64,000 nucleotides of DNA from an uncultured Candidatus Saccharibacteria bacterium. Its GTDB lineage: Bacteria; Patescibacteriota; Minisyncoccia; Phycocordibacterales; Phycocordibacteraceae. Positions 2,707-61,754 of this stretch are shown in pieces; the first letter of the stretch is position 1, and the number at the start of each line of letters is the position of its first letter. Where the stretch lies: NCBI GenBank assembly GCA_964402535.1, contig CAYOCH010000002.1:6661-70660 (forward strand). Reading direction: 5' to 3'. The position numbers and the translations under genes were made by a program. Below the pieces are notes generated by a model. That model was not told where the DNA came from. It saw only the letters and a program-made list of their open reading frames with translations, and did not search any database.

Positions 2707-3548
2707 TCATGGCTGCTGCGAACTCGCCGACGAAACTCATCGTGCCGCTTGCTGGCTTGGGTACGCGCTTCATGCCGTATTCCGGTGCCGTCCCGAAGGA
2801 GATGGCCTACCTGGTCGACAAACCGGTCATCGAGCATATCGTCGAGGAAGCGCGCCTTTCAGGCATGACAGAGGTGCTGTTCATCTTGAACAACAATAAG
2901 GAGATCATTCCCGACTATTTTAGACAGCAGAAGGGGGACTATCCCGGGATGAGATTCCGATGCATCCGCGCCGACGCGACGTTCGGCGACGGCCATTCGA
3001 TCCTGCTTGCTAAGCGTTTCGTCGAGAAGGATGAGCCTTTTGCGGTCAGCATGGGCGACCTGATCTCATTCGCGCGCGTCCCGTTCCTGAAGCAGCTTCG
3101 ATCCGCGTACGAGAAATATGAACGCCCGGTCATTTCTGTCGAGGAGGTGCAGCCGATCGATATGAAGGATGTCGCAAGCAAGAACGGGATGATCACGGTA
3201 GCGAGGACTCTCGCAAGCCGTGCCTACGTCGCCAACGACGTCGTCGAAAAGCCCGGCGCAGCGCGTTCCCCGAGCCGGATCCGATTGACCGGCAAGTACA
3301 TCCTGACACCGGATATATTCGACTATCTTGAGCGGCGGCTACGGAACCGGACTGGGGAGGTAAAACTCGCTGATGCCCTCAAAGACTATGCGAATGAAAG
3401 AGGGCTGCTCGCATACGCCTGCCGGGGGGAGATCCTCGACACGGGCAATAAGCTGGATTTCTTGAAAGCGAAGTTCCTCTTAGCCTCGGCGCATCCAGAA
3501 TACGGGAAGCCGCTGCGGGCATTCATCCGGCGCCGGTTGCAGCCGTGA
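2703..3548 (+). CDS. galU: UTP-glucose-1-phosphate uridylyltransferase-like sugar nucleotidyltransferase
   Basis: N-terminal LAGLGTRFMPYSGAVPKEMAYLVDKPVIEH matches the GalU/nucleotidyltransferase G-loop; 4-nt overlap with the upstream gene. Confidence 0.65.
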   Translation: MIMAAANSPTKLIVPLAGLGTRFMPYSGAVPKEMAYLVDKPVIEHIVEEARLSGMTEVLFILNNNKEIIPDYFRQQKGDYPGMRFRCIRADATFGDGHSILLAKRFVEKDEPFAVSMGDLISFARVPFLKQLRSAYEKYERPVISVEEVQPIDMKDVASKNGMITVARTLASRAYVANDVVEKPGAARSPSRIRLTGKYILTPDIFDYLERRLRNRTGEVKLADALKDYANERGLLAYACRGEILDTGNKLDFLKAKFLLASAHPEYGKPLRAFIRRRLQP

Positions 3549-40105: not shown

Positions 40106-40877
40106 ATTACGAAAGTCAGACTCTCGTAAATCGTGTACTATGTGATGAATGCGCGTTGAGCCGTACGGCATCGATTCTATTGTCCACGCGATGAAGCGTG
40201 GTGCGCGTGGCTTGCCCATTACTCGTGATCTAGCGGATCAATGGAGATTCGTCCGGTTACTCTATTTTGCGAATGATGAGTACAAGGACGACTCATGGGA
40301 GCGAGAGACGGACGGGCTAGGTATGTTTGGTAGGCCGGACACATGGCCCGAACGCGTTCCGCTCGTCAAGATTCTCGGCTGGGTGCTCATGCCGAATCAT
40401 TTTCATCTGTTGCTTCGGGAAAGTCGCGAGCGTGGTATCTCGAAGTTCATGCAGAAACTGTGCGGCAGCATGACTGCGCATTTCAATTTGAAATATGAAG
40501 AGAGGGGAAGCCTGTTCCAAGGCGCGTATAAAGGGCGCACAATAGATAGTGATGTATACCTGCGGCATATAGGACCGTACATCATGGTGAAGAACGTGTT
40601 CGAACTCTACCCGGGCGGGTATGAGCGAGCCGTCAGCGAATTCGATACGGCATGGGAATGGGCGGTCGAGACGTACCGGTTCTCGAGTTTGGCGGATTAC
40701 GCTGCTGGTCGTAACTCGCCGATTATCGATAAGGATGTACTAGGAGGGCTGTTCCCGTCCCCAAGCGATTTCCGTGAGTACGCGAAGCAGGCCGTCCTTA
40801 GCCGGACTACCGAGTCCTTAGACGAGTTTCGCAGATTGGTTCTAGAATAGTTTACGAAAGTCAGACTCTCGTAAATT
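40106..40877 (+). mobile_element. IS200/IS605-like (RAYT-like) element: Y1 transposase flanked by 26-nt imperfect-palindrome direct repeats
   Basis: aTTACGAAAGTCAGACTCTCGTAAAT at 40106-40131 and tTTACGAAAGTCAGACTCTCGTAAAT at 40851-40877, each right after a TAG stop, bracketing the transposase ORF. Confidence 0.6.
40149..40850 (+). CDS. IS200-like Y1 (HuH) transposase / REP-associated tyrosine transposase
   Basis: HuH motif MPNHFHLLL, downstream Tyr-containing region (…YLRHIGPYIMVKN…); homologous to 60319..61038. Confidence 0.7.
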   Translation: MRVEPYGIDSIVHAMKRGARGLPITRDLADQWRFVRLLYFANDEYKDDSWERETDGLGMFGRPDTWPERVPLVKILGWVLMPNHFHLLLRESRERGISKFMQKLCGSMTAHFNLKYEERGSLFQGAYKGRTIDSDVYLRHIGPYIMVKNVFELYPGGYERAVSEFDTAWEWAVETYRFSSLADYAAGRNSPIIDKDVLGGLFPSPSDFREYAKQAVLSRTTESLDEFRRLVLE

Positions 40878-54968: not shown

Positions 54969-57900
54969 GTGGTGGTCAACAAGTATCTCTCGGCCAACTC
55001 GACCACCTTCGAGGTTGGGACGATCAACGACAGCAACGGCGTCTACGCCTCATCGCTCAAGATCACGGGCGACAACGCGGTCCGCGTGCCGCTCACGCTC
55101 CAGCTCGGCAACTCGGGCGGCAACGTGACCAGTCTGCAGCTCGGCGCCAACACCTCGGTCGCGAGCGGCGCCGTGATCGCGAATATCTATAACGCCAGCA
55201 ATAATCCGGGCATCACGGTCGGTACGAGCCGCACCGACGGCACCGCCTTCACGGTCGCAAACGGGATCACTTATGACGCGAACAAGGTGCCGAACTCGGG
55301 CGGCACCGCGCTCCTCACCGTGCTCGGCGGCGGCAATGTTGGCGTGGGCACCACCTCGCCGTATGCGCTCCTCGCCCTCTCGAACTCAGTGTCGACGCCC
55401 GCTAACACGCCGTTCTTCACGATCTCGAGCACAACCGGCGGCACCTCTACCTCGACCCTCATGACCGTGCTCGCGAACGGGTACGTGGGCATCGGGACGG
55501 CGAGTCCGGGACGATTCCTGGATGTGGTGGCGAGTACCACTGCCGGGACAGAAATCGCGCGATTCACCAACACGCCTGTAAGCAATCGGTATATCTCTGT
55601 CCGCACGGTGGGCGCGTCTGATTTCGGCGGTGCGTACATCGGCGGGCCGATGTTGGACAGCAGTGATCCCCAGGTCATTTTCGGCAAGAATCTGTTACTG
55701 CCAAGTAACGGTGCGAATATAGCATTGGCTCAATCCAGCTTGACGAGTTCGTCTGCCGGGGGAACGGTGCTGACGAGCGGCGGATCGACGGCCCAAGCCG
55801 GGACAACTATCCAGCTGGGGAATAGCTCGACTTTCCAAGGGAATCTGTACGTTAAAGATGGGTCGGGGAACACGGTGATGACAGTCCAACCGACAGGTAA
55901 TGTCGGTATTGGTGCCACCGCACCAACCTCGCCCTTGACGGTCGTGACGCCCTCACTGTGGGGCAATGGGGCAGCAGGCGAGAATCTAGGCGTGACGGTC
56001 AACCCGTCGGCCAACGGCACGCTCTATGGGCTTTTTAACCTGACAAGTGTCACGGCCACGACCACGACCGGCAACGCGGCCGTCGTCGGCTCTCAGAACA
56101 CGGTGACGGCCACCAATAACAACGGCGGCAACACCACGCTCACCGCCGTCTCTGGGACGACGAACAACACCGGCGGTGGGAGCGCAAGCCAGATGACCGG
56201 CTTCTTTACGAATCCGGCGGTCTATAACACCGGTTCGTCGGTGAGCTCGCTCTATAACTTCTACGCAAACGACGTCTATCTCGGCAACGGCACCTCGCAG
56301 CCCTTCGGCTCGGTCAACAAGCTCTACGGCTATTATGTCGGTGCGCTCCAGAGCGCCTCGACCAACTACGGCCTCTTCTTCGCCAACAACCCGAACGGCG
56401 GCTCGATCGCCTCGGCCGCCTCGACCAACATCTCGATCCTGCCCGGCTCGGGCGGGAGCGTGGGGATCGGCACCACATCGCCGTGGGCACAACTTTCGGT
56501 CAACCCGAACGGGATCGCGGGCCCCGCCTTCGCGATCGGCTCCTCGACCGCGACGAACTTCGTCGTGACGAACGGCGGGAATGTGGGGATCAACACGGTT
56601 AACGCGACGAACGCTCTCACGTTCGGCGCGACAGGCGGCTATGAGATCTCGACGGAGCCGAACAATGCAAACGACCTCAACATCACGACGAACGCGACGA
56701 ACGGCGGCGGGATCTCTCTCGGTGCAAGAAACTCGAACAAATCGATCTATGTGAGTATCGGGGGTGGAGTCGGTATCGGCACGACCTCGCCGCGCGCCGC
56801 TCTTGAGATCGGCGGCAGCGCGAACCCGTCCGTCTACCTCAACTCGCAATATTCAACGCCGAGCACGATGCAGTGGTATATCCCGAACATCGCGACGATG
56901 TCGCTCGTCGCAAATGCGGTCGGGAACGAAAACGCAAACGCGCAGTGGGTCATGGACATGGGCTCTAGTGACGGCCTTACAGATTCTTTTGGCGTACTCC
57001 GCGCTAGTACCGTGGGTTCCACCCGCGTGCCGTTCTTCGTGGTGAACAACAACGGCAACACCGGCATCGGCACCACGACGCCGGGCGGCGACCTCTCGAT
57101 CGCAGGCAGCGCCGGCGGCACCAACCCGCTCTTCCTCATCTCTTCGAGTACCTCGGGCTACGCGACCTCGACCGCGTTCATGGTCGACAGTTACGGCAGC
57201 CTTGGCATCGGTCGGGTGCCGAACGCGCAGCTCTCAGTGGCTGGCGACGCCTATATCGGTACTGGCGCAGGCTCCTTCACCTTCACCTCCAACTACAACT
57301 TCAACGCACAAGGCACCAACTTCGGCCCGAGCCTCAACATCTCTGATGGCGATGCGACAAACCGCTGGGCCTCACTGCGCCTATCGACGGCGGGCGGTCA
57401 ATGGGAGATGGCCGACATGGGCGGGAACCTCGGATTCCTCCGCGGCTCGAACAATCGCGTAGTGATCGGTCGCTCCGATAGCAGCAATGCGAACCTGAAC
57501 GTCTACAACGACGCCAACACCATCCTCTTCACGGTTCAGCCGACGGGCTACGTCGGTATCGGTCCGAGCAACCCAGTTAATCAGCTCGACATCGGCATCG
57601 GGCCGTTCGCAACCGCCAAGACGGCCAACTTCAGCACCCTCAACATCGCGAACACGGCGACCTCCTCGTCGTCGTTCACGAAGACCGGCATGCAGATCTC
57701 ATCGACCGGCGCGTGGACAGGCCCGAACTACGGCCTCTATGTCTCGGCGGTCTCGGGCGGCACCAACAACTACGACGCGATCTTCAACGGCGGCGGCAAC
57801 GTCGGTATCGGCACCACGACGCCTTCGGATCTCTTGTCACTCGCTTCAACTAATCCGAGAATCGACCTGTTTGACACGAATGTTTCGGGTCCGGCGCGTG

Positions 57901-60281
57901 TCGCACTCACGGCGTATGGCGGAACCAATGCAAACGCTGCTCTGCAGACGCGTACGAATGTCCCGCTGATTTTCGGTGCAAATTCTAGTGCCAGCCAGCT
58001 CGTGCTCGCAACAAATGGCAACGTCGGCATCGGCACCACGACGCCCGGGAAGCCTCTCACTATCGCTGCTACGGGTTCCGGACCGTCTATCGGCACGGGA
58101 ATGCTTTCGCTCGTAGGTCCGCACAATACGACTGCTCGCCCTGAAATATTCTTCCAGAATTCCGCTGCCGGGACGACATATACCGGCGGTCTGCGCTGGT
58201 ATGACGGCAATGGCAACGAAGGGTGGGGTATTGAAAGCAATAGGGCCATAGGAACCGGTTATCTCGAATTCAACATTGCTGGCTCCAATAAGATGGTTCT
58301 CGACCCGTCTGGAAATGTCGGCATCGGCTCAACGAGCCCCACCTATACGCTTTCAGTTGACAAAGGCAGCGTCGGCAACCAGGCGGCATTCGGGCATACG
58401 GCCAAGGGATATCTCTATGACGACGGCACCAACTTCTGGCTTTCAAGTGCGGCGAGCGTGGCCGGCCCCGGCATAGGCTTTGCGCAATCTCTCGGTACCG
58501 CCTATCTGACCTATGCGACCGGGCAGGTAGGATTTACGATGGACAACTCTGGCAATGTCGGTATCGGCCGGAGCCCGGGCGTGCGGCTGGACGTGCAGGG
58601 TGTGAACAGCTCGTCGATCGTGCGGATTACGGCGGGCGGCGCGGGCGTCATACTCGGAGCCGACGTGGCGGGGAATGCGCTCTATGGGAACTCCGCCTAT
58701 GGCACCGCGCTGACCCTAAGCGCCGCGGGTGCCTTGCGCTTGAATGCCTATGGGGCGGGTACGCTCACGACCGATGCGAGTGGTAATGTCACGGCATCTT
58801 CCGATGCTCGCCTGAAGAATGTGGATGGAGGCTACACGCGCGGCCTCGAGGCGATACGCGGATTGTCGCCCCAGCTCTACCACTGGAACGCGGCGAGCGG
58901 ACTCGATCAGACGACGCAGTATGCCGGCTTTATCGCGCAGAACGTACGGCAGTACATTCCCGAGGCAGTCGGACAGACGCCGAGCGGTTATCTGACGCTC
59001 GCCGACCGTCCTATTGAAGCGGCGCTCGTGAATGCCGTGCAGCAGCTCGATAACCGAACGAGCTGGATCCAGGTAGCGAGCTCGAGCGCAACGACCACAC
59101 CGGTGCTCACCTTCGACCCGACGACAGGCCGCGTCGGCATCGGGTCGACCACGCCGACCCACACCCTCACGGTCGCAGGCGACGTCGGCGCGATCGCCTT
59201 CGTCAACACCTCGACACGAGACGCCAAGACTGACATCTCCTACGTGAACGCCTCGACGACCGAGGATATGCTGAACGCGCTCGTGAACCTCAAGGTCGCG
59301 ACCTATCACTACAAGGTCGAGCCCGAGACCGATCCGCTCCGCCTCGGCTTCATCGCAGAGGATGCAGCTAAGATCGCGCCCGAGATCCTCTCGCCGGACG
59401 GCAAGGGCGTCGACCTCTACAAGCTCGCGACCTTCACGCTCGCCGGCGTCCAGTCGCTCGCTGCGAAGGTCGATGTGCAAGGGACCAAGATCACCTCGCT
59501 TGAACAGCGCGTTGCGGCGCTCGAGAGCGGGGCAGTGTCGGTGGGCAGCTCGGCGCCGCAGCTCTCGACGAGCTCGCTCGCGAGCGCGATCTCGAGCATC
59601 ACGGAGGTCCTCAATATCGGCAAGCTCGTGTCGCAGACGTTCTATGCGGCGCAGGGCTTCTTCGACCGCTTGACGGCGGCGAACGCGACGATCGGTTCCT
59701 CGTCGACGCCGTCTGGCGTAACCTTCTTCGACACGGTTACCAAGCAGCCGTTCTGCTTCACGATCGCGAACGGAGTACCGACCACGACGCCGGGCGTCTG
59801 CGCCACCTCGAATGAGACGACCAATCCGTTCGCGACGTCGACACCGGCTGCTGCTGCAGCGACGAGCTCGCCGATCTCGGTGCTCGGCGCCAACCCGCTC
59901 CTGCTCGCGGTCGGGGCGACCTTCACCGACCCTGGCGTCACGGTCGCGAGCGGGGCAGCGGTGACCACATTCGTGAACGGCATACAGCAAGTGGTCTCAT
60001 CGACGACGATCAGCACGCTTAGTCCGACGACCTATATCATCACCTACCAGTCAACTGACGCCACGGGCGCACTCATATCGGCGACTCGCTCGGTGATAGT
60101 GGGGAACCCCGACGGCACGGTCTCGACCGGCGTTTCGACGACGACCGCTACCAGCACACCGATCACGATCCAGACGGTTGCGACGAGTACCACAGCCTCG
60201 TCTAGCCCGATCACGATCACTCCGGTCGACACCACCACAACCGCCTCAACGACATCCGCCACCTCAACTTCTGCACTTTAA
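54969..60281 (+). CDS. C-terminal part (1770 aa) of the giant repeat protein: repeats + two tandem S74 intramolecular-chaperone domains + DUF5011 Ig-like domain + Thr/Ser tail
   Basis: Same frame as 43263..54920 with no stop in the 48-nt gap; only a GTG start. Shares repeat families with the upstream ORF. S74-like domains: SDARLKNVDGGYTRGLEAIRGLSPQLYHW…GFIAQNVRQYIPEAV…GYLTLADRPIEAALVNAVQQLD (~58800-59090) and DAKTDISYVNAS…LKVATYHYK…LGFIAEDAAKIAPEIL…GVDLYKLATFTLAGVQSLAAKV…LEQRVAALE (~59220-59560). DUF5011-like …PGVTVASGAAVTTFVNGIQQV…TYIITYQSTDATGALISATRSVIV (~59880-60110). Confidence 0.75.
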   Translation: MVVNKYLSANSTTFEVGTINDSNGVYASSLKITGDNAVRVPLTLQLGNSGGNVTSLQLGANTSVASGAVIANIYNASNNPGITVGTSRTDGTAFTVANGITYDANKVPNSGGTALLTVLGGGNVGVGTTSPYALLALSNSVSTPANTPFFTISSTTGGTSTSTLMTVLANGYVGIGTASPGRFLDVVASTTAGTEIARFTNTPVSNRYISVRTVGASDFGGAYIGGPMLDSSDPQVIFGKNLLLPSNGANIALAQSSLTSSSAGGTVLTSGGSTAQAGTTIQLGNSSTFQGNLYVKDGSGNTVMTVQPTGNVGIGATAPTSPLTVVTPSLWGNGAAGENLGVTVNPSANGTLYGLFNLTSVTATTTTGNAAVVGSQNTVTATNNNGGNTTLTAVSGTTNNTGGGSASQMTGFFTNPAVYNTGSSVSSLYNFYANDVYLGNGTSQPFGSVNKLYGYYVGALQSASTNYGLFFANNPNGGSIASAASTNISILPGSGGSVGIGTTSPWAQLSVNPNGIAGPAFAIGSSTATNFVVTNGGNVGINTVNATNALTFGATGGYEISTEPNNANDLNITTNATNGGGISLGARNSNKSIYVSIGGGVGIGTTSPRAALEIGGSANPSVYLNSQYSTPSTMQWYIPNIATMSLVANAVGNENANAQWVMDMGSSDGLTDSFGVLRASTVGSTRVPFFVVNNNGNTGIGTTTPGGDLSIAGSAGGTNPLFLISSSTSGYATSTAFMVDSYGSLGIGRVPNAQLSVAGDAYIGTGAGSFTFTSNYNFNAQGTNFGPSLNISDGDATNRWASLRLSTAGGQWEMADMGGNLGFLRGSNNRVVIGRSDSSNANLNVYNDANTILFTVQPTGYVGIGPSNPVNQLDIGIGPFATAKTANFSTLNIANTATSSSSFTKTGMQISSTGAWTGPNYGLYVSAVSGGTNNYDAIFNGGGNVGIGTTTPSDLLSLASTNPRIDLFDTNVSGPARVALTAYGGTNANAALQTRTNVPLIFGANSSASQLVLATNGNVGIGTTTPGKPLTIAATGSGPSIGTGMLSLVGPHNTTARPEIFFQNSAAGTTYTGGLRWYDGNGNEGWGIESNRAIGTGYLEFNIAGSNKMVLDPSGNVGIGSTSPTYTLSVDKGSVGNQAAFGHTAKGYLYDDGTNFWLSSAASVAGPGIGFAQSLGTAYLTYATGQVGFTMDNSGNVGIGRSPGVRLDVQGVNSSSIVRITAGGAGVILGADVAGNALYGNSAYGTALTLSAAGALRLNAYGAGTLTTDASGNVTASSDARLKNVDGGYTRGLEAIRGLSPQLYHWNAASGLDQTTQYAGFIAQNVRQYIPEAVGQTPSGYLTLADRPIEAALVNAVQQLDNRTSWIQVASSSATTTPVLTFDPTTGRVGIGSTTPTHTLTVAGDVGAIAFVNTSTRDAKTDISYVNASTTEDMLNALVNLKVATYHYKVEPETDPLRLGFIAEDAAKIAPEILSPDGKGVDLYKLATFTLAGVQSLAAKVDVQGTKITSLEQRVAALESGAVSVGSSAPQLSTSSLASAISSITEVLNIGKLVSQTFYAAQGFFDRLTAANATIGSSSTPSGVTFFDTVTKQPFCFTIANGVPTTTPGVCATSNETTNPFATSTPAAAAATSSPISVLGANPLLLAVGATFTDPGVTVASGAAVTTFVNGIQQVVSSTTISTLSPTTYIITYQSTDATGALISATRSVIVGNPDGTVSTGVSTTTATSTPITIQTVATSTTASSSPITITPVDTTTTASTTSATSTSAL

Positions 60282-60295
60282 CGATACTCTGCTCT

Positions 60296-61039
60296 GAATG
60301 AAGGACATCGTATGTCCTTCATTCAAGCTTTTCGTAAGGCTTGAAGCTCGAATCTGAATCGCGGAGATATTCGTGAATGGACACGGAATAGCTTCCGAGA
60401 GCGTCTTTGAATAGCGTCGGTGATAAGAGGGAAGGGAAGTTGTGTTCACCAGTATAATCCGGATAGCTGCTCCAACGATACGTACGCAAATATTTCAAAG
60501 CATCATCCACATTTCGTATTCCAGCCTTCTCGCGTAGACGCCACTGTTCAGCCCCTGGTAGATAATCAAGCGGATTCAAGTGAATGTAGTGAAGGATGTA
60601 CAAGAAGTGCGAGTCGCGGTCGATCAGAATCTTCTTGGTGCGGCCCTGGAAGAGAGTGCCGCTGCGTGAATATCGCTCGTTGAAATATTTTGCGTAGCCG
60701 ACGTTGAGCTTTCGTAAGAAGAGGCTCATGGCACCGTCGACGCGTTCGCTCAACAGCAGGTGGTAGTGATTTTTCATCAGTACCCAGCCATGGATGTCGA
60801 CTAGCAGCTCCCGCGGTTCCCTAAATGAAGGACATACGAAGTCCCTCATGGCAGTCGGGTCAAATAGGCGCCACACGTTGTCTGCGGGTGCTGTATCGTT
60901 AAACTCATAGAGATCGTGCACGAAGCGAGCGTAATCCTGGGTATCAAGGAACAAATCTCTCCCCTCAACGCCGCGATTTAGGACGTGCCAAAGTTCCATA
61001 TACATCATGATACATGAAGGACATACGATGTCTTTCATG
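60296..61039 (-). mobile_element. second IS200/RAYT-like element: Y1 transposase flanked by ~27-nt hairpins
   Basis: Perfect hairpin GAATGAAGGACAT-CGT-ATGTCCTTCATTC at 60296-60324 and CATGAAGGACAT-ACG-ATGTCTTTCATG at 61013-61039; a degenerate third copy lies inside the gene at 60823-60849. Confidence 0.6.
60319..60999 (-). CDS. IS200-like Y1 (HuH) transposase / RAYT, copy 2
   Basis: HuH motif MKNHYHLLL, …FQGRTKKILIDRDSHFLYILHYIHLNPL…; divergent homolog of 40149..40850. The track start 61038 lies inside the flanking hairpin, so the internal ATG (MELWHVL…) is preferred. Confidence 0.65.
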   Translation of the reverse strand: MELWHVLNRGVEGRDLFLDTQDYARFVHDLYEFNDTAPADNVWRLFDPTAMRDFVCPSFREPRELLVDIHGWVLMKNHYHLLLSERVDGAMSLFLRKLNVGYAKYFNERYSRSGTLFQGRTKKILIDRDSHFLYILHYIHLNPLDYLPGAEQWRLREKAGIRNVDDALKYLRTYRWSSYPDYTGEHNFPSLLSPTLFKDALGSYSVSIHEYLRDSDSSFKPYEKLE

Positions 61040-61115
61040 CAGATGACCTCCCAGTGGACAACGAAGACGAACTATGGCACAGTGATTCCTGTCATAGTCC
61101 TTTGGGAGAGAAGTC

Positions 61116-61754
61116 ATGGATGCATGCAACGACGGGCATGTGCTGCCCGCACGGCCGCTCGAGGTCGCACTCGGGTTCAAGGAGTACGTGCTTGAGCTCA
61201 TCGATAACCCGGATATCCCGACGCGCGACGTCGTCTCGGTGCTCACGAAGCAGCCAGGCGTCGTCGCCTACTTCTTGCGGGCGGCGAACGAGGCGTGCGA
61301 GGCGAGCCGGAGGATGAGGAACAGCAAGCCGCGTACGGTCGCGGCTGTCGTGAACACGCTCGGGCTCGTCTACATCGCGCGGCATATGGACGCCTTTACC
61401 GGTGCCGGCGAGCCAGAGGGCGGTCGGCTCGTGCGCGGCGCTATCGACGCCTGCGGCGTCGCCAAGGTCCTCGCTGGGCTCGCTGAAGAGCGGCTCGGCA
61501 AGATCTGGGCGCCTGAATACTTCCTCGTCGGGCTCATGGACCGCAGCTTCATGCGGGACAACGAGCTTTTGGGGATCTGCAATCGCGACCTGATCGAATG
61601 CTACACCGGGCTGCGGCCCGGCGGCCCTGTCATCGCAGAGGCCGAGGCGCTCATCGAGGCGTTCCGCAAGGGCCTGTCGACGCGCGTGCCGCTCTACGCG
61701 GTCTGGAAGCGTGCCGTGAGCGATACGGAGGAGCTCTTCAGGAGCATCAGCTGA
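61116..61754 (+). CDS. HDOD-domain-like protein
   Basis: GGGAGAG RBS; …YVLELIDNPDIPTRDVVSVLTKQPGVVAYFLRAANEA… resembles the HDOD signalling domain. Confidence 0.5.
   Translation: MDACNDGHVLPARPLEVALGFKEYVLELIDNPDIPTRDVVSVLTKQPGVVAYFLRAANEACEASRRMRNSKPRTVAAVVNTLGLVYIARHMDAFTGAGEPEGGRLVRGAIDACGVAKVLAGLAEERLGKIWAPEYFLVGLMDRSFMRDNELLGICNRDLIECYTGLRPGGPVIAEAEALIEAFRKGLSTRVPLYAVWKRAVSDTEELFRSIS

What the first reader, a model, noticed from the sequence alone, without database searches (positions are those of the whole stretch)
60296..61039. Second, divergent IS200/RAYT-like element with its own cognate hairpins, one copy embedded in the gene
A homologous but distinct Y1 transposase (MKNHYHLLL) on the minus strand is flanked by GAATGAAGGACAT-CGT-ATGTCCTTCATTC (perfect 13-bp stem, 60296-60324) and a 1-mismatch copy at 61013-61039. 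A degenerate third copy (60823-60849) lies inside the reading frame, encoding …MRDFVCPSF…. The two elements therefore carry different hairpin types, as expected for separate RAYT/REP families. The internal hairpin suggests past self-insertion or a structured regulatory site.
Basis: seen in the sequence. Interest (0 to 1): 0.55.

Follow-up and report, generated by a model that had tools for sequence, protein, structure and literature searches.

The report
Tyrosine nuclease gene with three matching hairpins
A small gene for a single-strand-DNA-cutting enzyme (a relative of the RAYT/IS200 transposases) carries the same DNA hairpin on its promoter, inside its own coding sequence and at its stop codon. 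This three-hairpin layout is shared by a large, apparently undescribed family in ultra-small (CPR) bacteria, where the three copies change together from species to species.

Summary
Three copies of ATGAAGGACAT-ACG-ATGTCCTTCAT lie at 60295-60325 (perfect), 60825-60849 (2 mismatches, in frame) and 61013-61039 (1 mismatch). They lie at both ends of, and inside, a 226-aa HUH/Tyr gene (60322-60999, minus strand). The 11-mer occurs nowhere else in the 64 kb.

The internal copy is not a one-off self-insertion. Of the 80 loci compared (this window and 79 homologous loci from CPR bacteria), 60 show three matching hairpins at about -40, +150 and +680. Stems differ between loci (41 types) but match within a locus. 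The coding-region hairpin shows strong compensatory covariation. It sits in two different reading frames and encodes a disordered loop.

The 5' hairpin covers the -35/spacer of a promoter for a leaderless transcript, so recognition must be at the DNA level.

The genes are under purifying selection (dN/dS 0.04-0.17). They sit in position-specific clades, show presence/absence polymorphism with solo hairpins at some empty sites, and have few dispersed copies.

Motifs (NHYH, FQ, YIHLNP, WSS) match TnpA-Y1 subclass 2.1 (RAYT group 1/TIRYT), which was reported to lack REPs. The best fold match is E. coli RAYT (4ER8). It is not an IS200 element.

Verdict: a new variant of a known kind. The mechanism (autoregulation plus enzyme-driven homogenisation of the hairpins) is inferred, not shown.

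The parts
60295..60325 (.). 3' hairpin (relative to the gene): TGAATGAAGGACAT-CGT-ATGTCCTTCATTCA, a perfect 14-bp stem. It contains the gene's stop codon (TCA at 60319-60321 = TGA on the minus strand). It also scores as a terminator-like site for the convergent giant surface-protein gene.
   Evidence: -15.8 kcal/mol, z = -10
60322..60999 (-). Coding sequence of the 226-aa HUH/Tyr (TnpA-Y1 class 2, RAYT/TIRYT-like) protein, starting MELWHVLNRG. HUH codons lie at 60760-60768 and the catalytic Tyr138 codon at 60586-60588.
60825..60849 (.). Internal, in-frame copy of the hairpin (ATGAAGGACAT-ACG-AAGTCCCTCAT on the + strand). It encodes MRDFVCPSF (residues 51-59) in a predicted disordered loop between helix A and strand 2. 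The arm at the 3' side in gene sense is identical to the flanking hairpins. The other arm has 2 changes.
61013..61039 (.). 5' hairpin (CATGAAGGACAT-ACG-ATGTCTTTCATG, one G.T mismatch). It lies 14-40 nt upstream of the start codon and covers the -35-like hexamer and most of the promoter spacer.
61007..61034 (-). Promoter-like site: AAGACA (61034-61029, inside the hairpin arm), 16-nt spacer, TATCAT (61012-61007), then 7 nt to the ATG at 60999. This implies a leaderless transcript.
   Evidence: a -10 box ends 6-8 nt before the ATG in 41 of 61 homologous loci against 9.6 expected
60293..61043 (.). The whole cassette, bounded by the 30-nt terminal inverted repeats TCTG-hairpin ... hairpin-CAGA. It coincides with a low-GC island (48-52% against 61-68% in the flanks).

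Best explanation
This is one member of a large family of HUH/Tyr single-strand-DNA nucleases specific to CPR bacteria (Paceibacteria/Kaiserbacteria). The family belongs to TnpA-Y1 class 2 and is closest in motifs to subclass 2.1 (RAYT group 1/TIRYT).

Each gene forms a compact cassette with three copies of its own private 25-nt palindromic hairpin. Their consensus form is ATG-NNN-GAY-NT, a 3-nt loop (usually ACG/CGT), then the complement.
- One copy lies over the -35/spacer of the gene's promoter.
- One lies in frame in a disordered loop-coding segment about 150 nt into the gene.
- One lies at the stop codon.

Shown: this architecture, its conservation, the compensatory covariation, the match of the three copies within a locus, purifying selection on the protein, the promoter overlap, and the position-specific clades.

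Inferred:
(i) The encoded protein is the factor that recognises the three hairpins as folded single-stranded or extruded DNA. Each paralogue, even 7.5 kb from another, has its own hairpin type.
(ii) Binding at the promoter copy gives autoregulation.
(iii) The enzyme's cleavage and strand-transfer activity on these hairpins, or templated repair between them, keeps the three copies identical. It occasionally seeds solitary copies at gene ends or in frame in other genes. It can also delete or insert the whole cassette, leaving a solo hairpin.

The cassette behaves as a largely resident, RAYT-like 'mini-REPtron', not as a hopping insertion sequence.
For: Protein identity:
- Pfam Y1_Tnp 21 bits and NCBIfam REP_Tyr_transpos 36.7 bits.
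- Best Foldseek hit is 4ER8, E. coli RAYT with REP hairpin, E = 6e-6, followed by the ISDra2 and IS608 TnpA structures.
- H78, H80, Y138 and N142 are invariant.
- Motifs NHYH/FQ/YIHLNP/WSS match the subclass 2.1 row of Table 1 in PMC6006769.

Three-hairpin architecture:
- 60 of 80 loci have all three 25-mers at least 20/25 identical pairwise.
- Internal against 5' similarity is 21.9/25 within a locus and 15.1/25 between loci, with 0 of 2000 permutations reaching the observed value. There are 41 stem types.
- Covariation of the coding hairpin: 86% of cells paired against 63% in shuffles, score 0.565 against 0.153 (0 of 500), slid controls 33-46%.
- The hairpin lies in frame 0 in 42 loci and frame 1 in 18, giving unrelated peptides. 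The peptide falls in a loop with pLDDT below 50.
- Close orthologues differ in all six arms at once: L039 ATGTCGGGACGT against L041 ATGTAGGACGT, at 85% protein identity.
- Paralogues in the same locus carry different trios.

Promoter overlap.

Selection and residence:
- dN/dS is 0.04-0.17 with synonymous sites saturated.
- Synteny groups B, C and D are monophyletic, and 43 of 46 nearest neighbours fall in the same group.
- Gene GC is below flank GC in 80 of 80 loci, and the two correlate (r = 0.72).

Presence/absence and dispersal:
- Some syntenic sites are empty, and some of those keep a solo hairpin with the conserved flank.
- A few solitary cognate copies lie at 3' ends of ung, recR and tal, or in frame in giant surface-protein ORFs.
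Against: - No biochemical evidence exists that the protein binds or cuts these hairpins.
- In this particular window the internal copy is degenerate (9/11, z about -2), so it may be decaying here.
- Hairpin orientation occurs in all eight combinations. That is unexpected for strand-specific IS608-like chemistry and fits symmetric double-stranded operators equally well.
- Divergence of the gene correlates only weakly with divergence of its neighbours (Spearman 0.06-0.39), and the GAPDH-adjacent group is polyphyletic. Replacement or re-insertion at preferred sites cannot be excluded.
- The promoter assignment rests on consensus matches only.
- The subclass 2.1 assignment rests on published motif strings, not on a joint phylogeny.
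Confidence: 0.6

Rival explanations
1. Pure operator model. The protein has become a DNA-binding regulator. The three palindromes are double-stranded operators (promoter, +150, 3' end) bound by a symmetric oligomer, possibly with looping as with the lac O1/O2/O3 operators. No DNA cleavage is involved.
For: The 5' copy overlaps the -35/spacer. Orientation is irrelevant, as all 8 combinations occur, which is what a symmetric double-stranded site predicts. Few dispersed copies exist.
Against: The catalytic HUH and Tyr residues are invariant under strong purifying selection. The site has an 11-12-bp uninterrupted stem with a conserved 3-nt loop and an invariant closing T-A pair, which looks like a folded hairpin and not two half-sites. 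Solitary copies elsewhere and solo hairpins at empty sites imply DNA transactions. Simultaneous change of six arms needs a copying mechanism.
Confidence: 0.15
2. Active IS200/IS605-like insertion sequence. The gene plus its end hairpins transposes by single-strand peel-and-paste. The low-GC island marks a recent arrival.
For: It is a hairpin-bounded cassette with a GC island. Presence/absence polymorphism exists. Some genomes hold 2-4 paralogues. The GAPDH-adjacent group is polyphyletic, and divergence tracks the neighbours only weakly.
Against: The GC deficit is universal (80 of 80 loci) and tracks host GC, so it is intrinsic and not a sign of recent arrival. Paralogues are 50-70% identical and carry different hairpins, and no duplicate is seen. 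Groups B, C and D are position-specific clades. The Tyr motif is Y...NP, the protein is 226 aa, and there is no tnpB. Both ends carry the same palindrome instead of distinct left and right ends. Empty sites retain a hairpin, unlike precise IS608 excision.
Confidence: 0.12
3. RNA-level elements. The hairpins act in the mRNA: a 5' structure, an internal pause or attenuator, and a 3' terminator or stabiliser, as described for many REPs.
For: The 3' copy is terminator-like and lies right at the stop codon. The internal copy is transcribed. The window's mismatches are G.T, which would be G.U wobbles in RNA.
Against: The 5' copy lies upstream of the -10 box and the inferred start, so it is not in the transcript. 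Whole units are found inverted, mismatches included, for example in L063 and L057. That preserves a DNA palindrome but not a given RNA. There is no Rfam match. This model also gives no reason for the three sites to stay identical.
Confidence: 0.08
4. Chance or a one-off event: a REP-like hairpin happened to insert into this gene once in this lineage and has no function.
For: In-frame REP insertions into genes, including tnpA-REP genes of subclass 2.4, are documented and are considered tolerated passengers (PMC6006769; PMC3733652). The window's internal copy is degenerate.
Against: The position is the same in 60 of the 80 loci compared (this window and 79 homologous loci), and in a relative only 45% identical. 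Covariation is strong. The internal copy is a perfect palindrome in 52% of loci, against 59% and 64% for the flanking copies.
Confidence: 0.03

Closest known systems
TnpA-Y1 subclass 2.1 of Quentin et al. 2018 (= RAYT group 1 of Bertels et al. 2017; largely the TIRYTs of Di Nocera et al. 2013)
   Same: The signature motifs are the same: NH[YF]H, FQ, Y[IV]HLNP and the C-terminal 'SS' (here NHYH, LFQG, YIHLNP, RWSSY). Length is about 230-240 aa. Copy number is low, with diverged paralogues. The gene is bounded by terminal inverted repeats, and some described TIRs are self-complementary and overlap the gene ends.
   Different: Subclass 2.1 was reported to have no REP-like hairpins after automatic and manual searches. 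Here every member has short perfect hairpins, including one inside the gene. The GGGG[AT][CG]A[CG] TIR consensus is absent. Pfam detects no C-terminal HTH domain. The host range is CPR bacteria, which were not sampled in those studies.
TnpA-Y1 subclass 2.4 (RAYT group 4) with 'double-foot' REPs inserted in tnpA-REP
   Same: The cognate palindrome is found inside the nuclease's own gene without breaking the frame, in a peripheral loop. The hairpins have a symmetric foot on both sides (here ATG...CAT; there GT[AG]G...C[TC]AC).
   Different: In 2.4 the insertions are variable in position, number and length, lie between the HuH and Tyr motifs, and are treated as tolerated insertions. Here there is a single copy at a fixed position upstream of HuH (between helix A and strand 2), conserved across the family and co-varying with the flanking copies. 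The protein motifs also differ (2.4: NH[IFV]H, WQ, YIxNNP, about 194 aa).
E. coli REPtron (TnpA-REP/RAYT, PDB 4ER8, with REP/BIME)
   Same: Best structural match. Both are HUH/Tyr nucleases with a Y...NP motif whose gene is flanked by the cognate hairpins it processes. Protein and hairpin co-evolve, and each paralogue has its own hairpin family.
   Different: There is no GTAG guide tetranucleotide and no bulge. The hairpins are not a high-copy dispersed family: 0 other copies in 64 kb here, and 16 extra in 1.13 Mb of related loci. The NCBIfam equivalog score is well below its cut-off (36.7 against 80). This family has an additional intragenic copy and a copy overlapping the promoter.
IS200/IS605 insertion sequences (IS608, ISDra2)
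   Same: Same fold and catalytic HUH plus a single Tyr. Subterminal hairpins lie at both ends of the gene.
   Different: IS200/IS605 has a Y...Q motif, a core of about 150 aa, distinct left and right ends on one strand, many near-identical copies, and often a tnpB. None of these is seen here.

Membership tests
HUH/Y1 superfamily (Pfam Y1_Tnp) | HUH motif and one catalytic Tyr on the RAYT/IS200 TnpA fold | tested here: met
   H78-Y-H80 and Y138 are invariant in 73 sequences. Foldseek top hits are 4ER8, ISDra2 and IS608 TnpA, E = 6e-6 to 1e-3. The Pfam score is 21.2, just under the gathering score of 23.
IS200/IS605 (TnpA-Y1 subclass 1.1) | Tyr motif Y---Q, a core-only protein of about 150 aa | tested here: not met
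   The motif is YIHLNP (Y---NP) and the protein is 226 aa with a C-terminal domain.
IS200/IS605 (TnpA-Y1 subclass 1.1) | Multiple near-identical copies per genome, distinct left and right subterminal hairpins, frequent tnpB partner | tested here: not met
   No second copy occurs in 64 kb. Paralogues in related genomes are 50-70% identical and carry different hairpins. Both ends carry the same palindrome. No tnpB is adjacent. A whole-genome copy count for the source genome could not be made.
RAYT / TnpA-REP (class 2) | Y---NP Tyr motif and RAYT-like fold | tested here: met
   YIHLNP. 4ER8 is the best structural match. NCBIfam REP_Tyr_transpos E = 3.6e-9, but 36.7 bits is below the equivalog cut-off of 80.
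RAYT / TnpA-REP (class 2) | Gene flanked by cognate REP hairpins (REPtron) | tested here: met
   Cognate hairpins lie at both ends here and in most of the 79 homologous loci.
RAYT / TnpA-REP (class 2) | REP carries a 5' GT[AG]G guide tetranucleotide | tested here: not met
   The foot is (A)ATG...CAT(T) on both sides, with no GTAG.
RAYT / TnpA-REP (class 2) | Cognate REP/REPIN is a high-copy dispersed family in the genome | tested here: inconclusive
   There are 0 extra copies in this 64-kb window, 16 extra copies in 12 of 80 loci over 1.13 Mb, and one exact match in the metagenome collection. The data point to low copy number, but no complete genome was available.
TnpA-Y1 subclass 2.1 / TIRYT | Motifs NH[YF]H, FQ, Y[IV]HLNP, C-terminal SS; median length 238 aa | tested here: met
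   NHYH, LFQG, YIHLNP, RWSSY; 226 aa. These were read from alignment A1/A2 against Table 1 of PMC6006769. No joint phylogeny was made.
TnpA-Y1 subclass 2.1 / TIRYT | No REP-like hairpins; TIRs often carry GGGG[AT][CG]A[CG]; C-terminal HTH (Bac_DnaA_C/HTH_23/HTH_28) | tested here: not met
   Perfect hairpins are present. The TIR here is TCTG plus the hairpin, without the GGGG motif. Pfam finds no HTH domain at E <= 0.1.
TnpA-Y1 subclass 2.4 | Motifs NH[IFV]H, WQ, YIxNNP; REP insertions between the HuH and Tyr motifs | tested here: not met
   The motifs differ. The internal hairpin lies upstream of HuH, at residues 51-59 with HuH at 78-80.
Known anti-phage defence systems (PADLOC) | Match to a defence-system protein model | tested here: not met
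   No hit for this protein, its paralogue, or the adjacent 212-aa protein.

The most novel reading that the evidence does not exclude
The cassette is a self-maintaining, integron-like unit driven by an HUH enzyme. The nuclease recombines folded hairpins with one another. This would (a) copy the sequence of one hairpin onto the others, with the intragenic copy, protected by selection on the gene, acting as the master template. It would also (b) integrate or excise the whole gene at solo 'landing-pad' hairpins next to housekeeping genes such as GAPDH, L25 and recR. That would be a new mode of site-specific cassette mobility and of protein/DNA-site co-evolution, in which the recognition site is written inside the gene for its own reader.
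Probability: 0.15. Interest if true: 0.85.

Novelty: new variant of a known kind. Interest (0 to 1): 0.62.

Why it matters
RAYT-type nucleases and their palindromes are widespread, but their cellular role and their way of co-evolving with the hairpins are still open questions.

This family offers a stripped-down system: one small gene and three cognate sites, with almost no dispersed copies to confuse the picture. It is found in thousands of genomes with dozens of natural specificity variants, which makes three things directly testable:
- how an HUH/Tyr enzyme reads a hairpin;
- how enzyme and site change specificity together;
- whether such enzymes regulate themselves.

It also shows that subclass 2.1-like enzymes, thought to lack hairpin partners, can have them. 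It adds a conserved and apparently selected mobile-element-derived module to the very small genomes of CPR bacteria. The natural panel of orthogonal enzyme/hairpin pairs could be of use for HUH-tag style DNA-protein conjugation.

Tried and rejected
- Rfam scan of 60000-61400 at E <= 1: nothing.
- PADLOC: nothing.
- Sequence search of PDB with the family profile: only marginal ISDra2 hits, E about 0.4. The fold search was needed.
- Exact-hairpin scan of viral contigs: 0 hits. Metagenome contigs: one contig only. The only other record of this gene found is an 8-kb Logan contig that lies inside the window's region.
- I considered that the hairpin's ATG is the true start codon, since the ORF is open from it and gene callers use it. 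I rejected this because the 5' hairpin is out of frame in many loci and a -10 box lies downstream of it.
- I considered recent horizontal acquisition as the cause of the GC island. I rejected this because the deficit is universal and scales with host GC.
- I looked for an internal hairpin in the sister family (40149 type). None was found in the window or in five other loci.
- I tested simple co-divergence with neighbouring genes. The correlation is weak, so I do not claim strict vertical inheritance.
- Literature searches linking tyrosine transposases or RAYTs to CPR/Patescibacteria found no description of this family.
- I did not attempt protein-residue against hairpin-base covariation, because 80 phylogenetically structured loci are too few.
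Full report
**1. The observation**

- 3' copy: on the + strand, 60295-60325 reads TGAATGAAGGACAT-CGT-ATGTCCTTCATTCA, a perfect 14-bp stem.
- Internal copy: 60825-60849 reads ATGAAGGACAT-ACG-AAGTCCCTCAT, with 9 of 11 positions complementary.
- 5' copy: 61013-61039 reads CATGAAGGACAT-ACG-ATGTCTTTCATG, with one G.T mismatch.

The 11-mer with up to one mismatch occurs 7 times in the 64 kb against 0.46 expected. Five of the hits belong to these three sites. The outer two copies form a 30-nt terminal inverted repeat, TCTG-hairpin ... hairpin-CAGA, 93% complementary.

Folded as DNA, the 3' copy gives -15.8 kcal/mol (z = -10) and the 5' copy -8.5 (z = -5). The internal copy gives only -3.9 to -4.8 (z about -1.5 to -2). 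The cassette coincides with a GC trough of 48-52%, in a window that averages 61%.

**2. The gene**

The ORF 60319-61038 on the minus strand is 239 aa. It hits Pfam Y1_Tnp weakly (21.2 bits, gathering score 23). It hits NCBIfam REP_Tyr_transpos at E = 3.6e-9, but well below that model's cut-off (36.7 against 80 bits).

More than 4,000 database proteins match at E <= 0.001. The best 120 are 63-77% identical (plus the exact database copy of this protein), and nearly all that carry a name come from CPR bacteria: Kaiserbacteria, Paceibacterota, Minisyncoccia. Most are 226-229 aa and start at MELWHV, so the true start is probably 60999.

H78, H80 (the HUH motif), Y138 and N142 are invariant in a 73-sequence alignment.

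An AlphaFold model (mean pLDDT 66.7, with the core at 80-91) has the expected strand-helix order. Its best PDB match is the E. coli RAYT bound to a REP hairpin (4ER8, E = 6e-6), followed by the ISDra2 and IS608 transposases.

dN/dS between orthologues is 0.04-0.17, with synonymous sites mostly saturated. The gene is therefore functional and old.

**3. The internal hairpin is a family trait**

I fetched 79 homologous loci from one-genome-per-species contigs and scanned them for palindromes. Counting this window, that makes 80 loci.

Nearly every locus has three hairpins at the same places relative to the start codon: about -40, +135 to +162, and +650 to +720. In 60 of 80 loci all three 25-nt units are at least 20/25 identical to each other. 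Most of the remainder have two matching copies, or the contig ends.

The stem sequence differs between loci, with 41 distinct 11-mers among the 60 loci. Within a locus the three copies agree. Internal against 5' similarity is 21.9/25 within a locus and 15.1/25 between loci, and 0 of 2000 permutations reach the observed value.

Features conserved across the family:
- the stem foot ATG...CAT;
- a G-C pair at stem position 7;
- the closing T-A pair;
- a 3-nt loop, usually ACG/CGT.

On an ungapped alignment of 67 internal hairpins, 86% of cells pair, against 63% in shuffles and 33-46% when the partner is slid. There are 208 double-sided changes, and the covariation score is 0.565 against 0.153, reached by 0 of 500 shuffles.

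The internal copy is a perfect palindrome in 52% of loci. The flanking copies are perfect in 59% and 64%.

**4. The nucleic acid is selected, not the peptide**

The internal hairpin lies in reading frame 0 in 42 loci and in frame 1 in 18. The nine residues it encodes are accordingly unrelated. Examples are MRDFVCPSF, MKGFVNLSF and MADIRCLPL in frame 0, against NVGRTTSYI and DVGSTRPYI in frame 1.

In the model these residues (51-59) lie in a segment with pLDDT below 50, between helix A (20-32) and strand 2 (67-74), upstream of the HUH strand.

A relative only 45% identical (L081) still has the internal hairpin at this place. The sister family represented by the window's other Y1 gene (40149-40850, 36% identical) has only the two flanking hairpins. 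This holds in the window and in five further loci.

**5. Concerted change**

Close orthologues can differ in all six arms at once. L039 carries ATGTCGGGACGT three times and L041 carries ATGTAGGACGT three times, at 85% protein identity and in the same genomic position.

Paralogues only 7.5 kb apart carry different trios (L008, L033). Whole units, mismatches included, are found in either orientation (for example L063 and L057). All eight orientation combinations occur.

In the window's own clade the arm on the 3' side (gene sense) of the internal copy is identical to the flanking copies in each species. The other arm stays ATGAGGGAYTT.

I read this as evidence for a copying or homogenising process acting on the hairpins. 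That process is inferred, not shown.

**6. The 5' copy sits on the promoter**

The consensus scan finds one promoter-like site in the region. It is AAGACA inside the hairpin arm, a 16-nt spacer, then TATCAT directly after the hairpin, and 7 nt further on the ATG at 60999.

Across loci, a TAnnnT hexamer (mostly TATACT or TATAAT) ends 6-8 nt before the start codon in 41 of 61 loci, against 9.6 expected. It begins 1-7 nt after the hairpin.

This implies a leaderless transcript. The 5' hairpin is therefore not in the mRNA, so whatever recognises all three copies must do so on DNA. The 3' copy overlaps the stop codon and scores as a terminator-like site for the convergent 1770-aa surface-protein gene.

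**7. Resident cassette, not a hopping insertion sequence**

- Gene GC is lower than flank GC in 80 of 80 loci (0.44 against 0.54) and tracks host GC (r = 0.72). The GC island is therefore intrinsic and not a mark of recent arrival.
- The genes fall into synteny groups:
  - A, downstream of tkt-rpe-rpiB-GAPDH;
  - B, between ribosomal protein L25 and class I aldolase;
  - C, next to RNase R;
  - D, this window: dnaB-recR-212-aa gene-Y1-giant surface protein.
- Groups B, C and D are monophyletic in a neighbour-joining tree. For 43 of 46 genes the nearest relative lies in the same group. Group A is polyphyletic.
- Divergence of the gene correlates only weakly with that of its neighbours (Spearman 0.06-0.39). 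Replacement at preferred sites is not excluded.
- Both sites of the conserved L25...GAPDH cluster can be occupied (L008, L033, L049) or empty.
- Two empty B sites keep a solo hairpin. In L044 it has the same upstream flank as occupied sites. Two other empty sites have none.
- Locus-specific hairpins outside the cassette are rare: 16 copies in 12 of 80 loci over 1.13 Mb, and none in this window. They lie at the 3' ends of ordinary genes (ung, recR, tal) or in frame inside giant surface-protein ORFs.
- The window's exact hairpin occurs on one metagenome contig and on no viral contig.

**8. Comparison with what is known**

Quentin et al. 2018 (PMC6006769) divide the TnpA-Y1 family into 12 subclasses.

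The motifs here (NHYH, FQ, YIHLNP, C-terminal SS, about 230 aa) match their subclass 2.1. That subclass equals RAYT group 1 of Bertels et al. 2017 and largely the TIRYTs of Di Nocera et al. 2013. [quoted passage not shown]

Their subclass 2.4 has REPs with a symmetric 'double foot' and REPs inserted in frame inside tnpA-REP. Those insertions are variable and lie between the HuH and Tyr motifs, and the authors suggest they may have little effect on activity.

TIRYT genes are bounded by inverted repeats. Some are self-complementary and overlap the gene ends.

The present family combines 2.1-like motifs with hairpin partners. It adds a fixed, co-varying intragenic copy and a copy on the promoter. 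I found no paper linking these enzymes to CPR bacteria.

At 50% clustering the wider superfamily has 118 clusters at E <= 1e-30 and 3,861 at E <= 1e-10.

**9. Mechanism, with status**

Shown:
- the architecture, its conservation and the covariation;
- the match of the three copies within a locus;
- the frame shift between loci and the loop location;
- the promoter overlap, by consensus matches only;
- purifying selection and the position-specific clades;
- presence/absence polymorphism with solo hairpins, and rare solitary copies.

Inferred:
This is the only locally encoded candidate, and each paralogue has a private stem.
- It represses its own promoter by binding the 5' copy.
- Its cleavage/joining activity, or repair templated between copies, homogenises the trio, seeds solitary copies, and can remove or insert the cassette at a hairpin.

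The role of the internal copy is the least certain point. It may be a second binding site for regulation, or a protected master copy. In this window it is partly degenerate.

**10. Verdict**

Its family assignment is right at the superfamily level and wrong for IS200. The 'self-insertion' idea is replaced by a conserved three-hairpin design.

This is a new variant of a known kind (RAYT/TIRYT-type HUH nucleases with cognate palindromes). It is of moderate to high interest, because it gives a minimal and naturally diversified enzyme/hairpin system and contradicts the reported absence of hairpin partners in the 2.1-like branch.

Noticed in passing
window 40107-40129, 40149-40850, 40852-40874: The window's other Y1 gene (233 aa, 36% identical, Pfam Y1_Tnp 32.5 bits) is flanked by two identical copies of TTACGAAAGT-CAG-ACTCTCGTAA in the same orientation. 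It has no internal copy. Five homologous loci (L082-L087) also have two hairpins only, with a conserved AGT-cag-ACT apex. Several sit beside GAPDH or L31/RF-1.
   Followed up: partly
L008 1747-10723; L033 9337-17988; L049 171-8005: In related genomes, a conserved sugar-metabolism cluster (aldolase, pfkB kinase, transketolase, rpe, rpiB, GAPDH; about 7.5 kb) is bracketed by two paralogous Y1 cassettes in the same orientation. In L008 and L033 each was shown to carry its own hairpin type (L049 was not checked). Either site can be empty in other species.
   Followed up: partly
L044 3320-3346; L061 about 3080-3110: Sites between L25 and aldolase that lack the Y1 gene still carry one solo hairpin. 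In L044 it follows the same upstream flank (CCGCAACGCACC) as in occupied sites. This resembles a solo remnant or a landing pad.
   Followed up: partly
L079 (+1583, +1688 from the start codon); L066 (+1515): Cognate hairpin copies lie inside long ORFs of giant surface proteins without breaking them. These are in-frame hairpin insertions in genes other than the nuclease gene.
   Followed up: no
window 60290-61050 and all 79 homologous loci: The Y1 gene is about 10 GC points poorer than its surroundings in 80 of 80 loci, while still tracking host GC (r = 0.72). The cause is unknown. Candidates are amino-acid composition, ease of strand opening, and deamination of frequently single-stranded DNA.
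   Followed up: partly
window 54969-60281: A 1770-aa Thr/Ser/Gly-rich surface protein has a Peptidase_S74 (endosialidase chaperone) domain and a bacterial Ig-like domain near its C-terminus. It ends 14 nt before the Y1 3' hairpin, which is its only terminator-like structure. Similar giant proteins flank the cassette in several other loci (L002, L015, L079, L081, L082).
   Followed up: partly
window 60999-61038: The database protein (239 aa, P0001) starts at the ATG that forms the foot of the 5' hairpin. Several homologues are annotated the same way, which creates a spurious N-terminal peptide (MKDIVCPSC...) that mimics the internal hairpin peptide.
   Followed up: yes
window 60825-60849; L002, L003, L004, L006 internal hairpins: In the window's clade, only one arm of the internal hairpin (the 3' arm in gene sense) follows the species-specific flanking hairpins exactly. 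The other arm is frozen as ATGAGGGAYTT. This is a half-site asymmetry that I cannot explain.
   Followed up: partly
window 61116-61754: A 212-aa ORF between the cassette and recR has no Pfam or PADLOC match.
   Followed up: no
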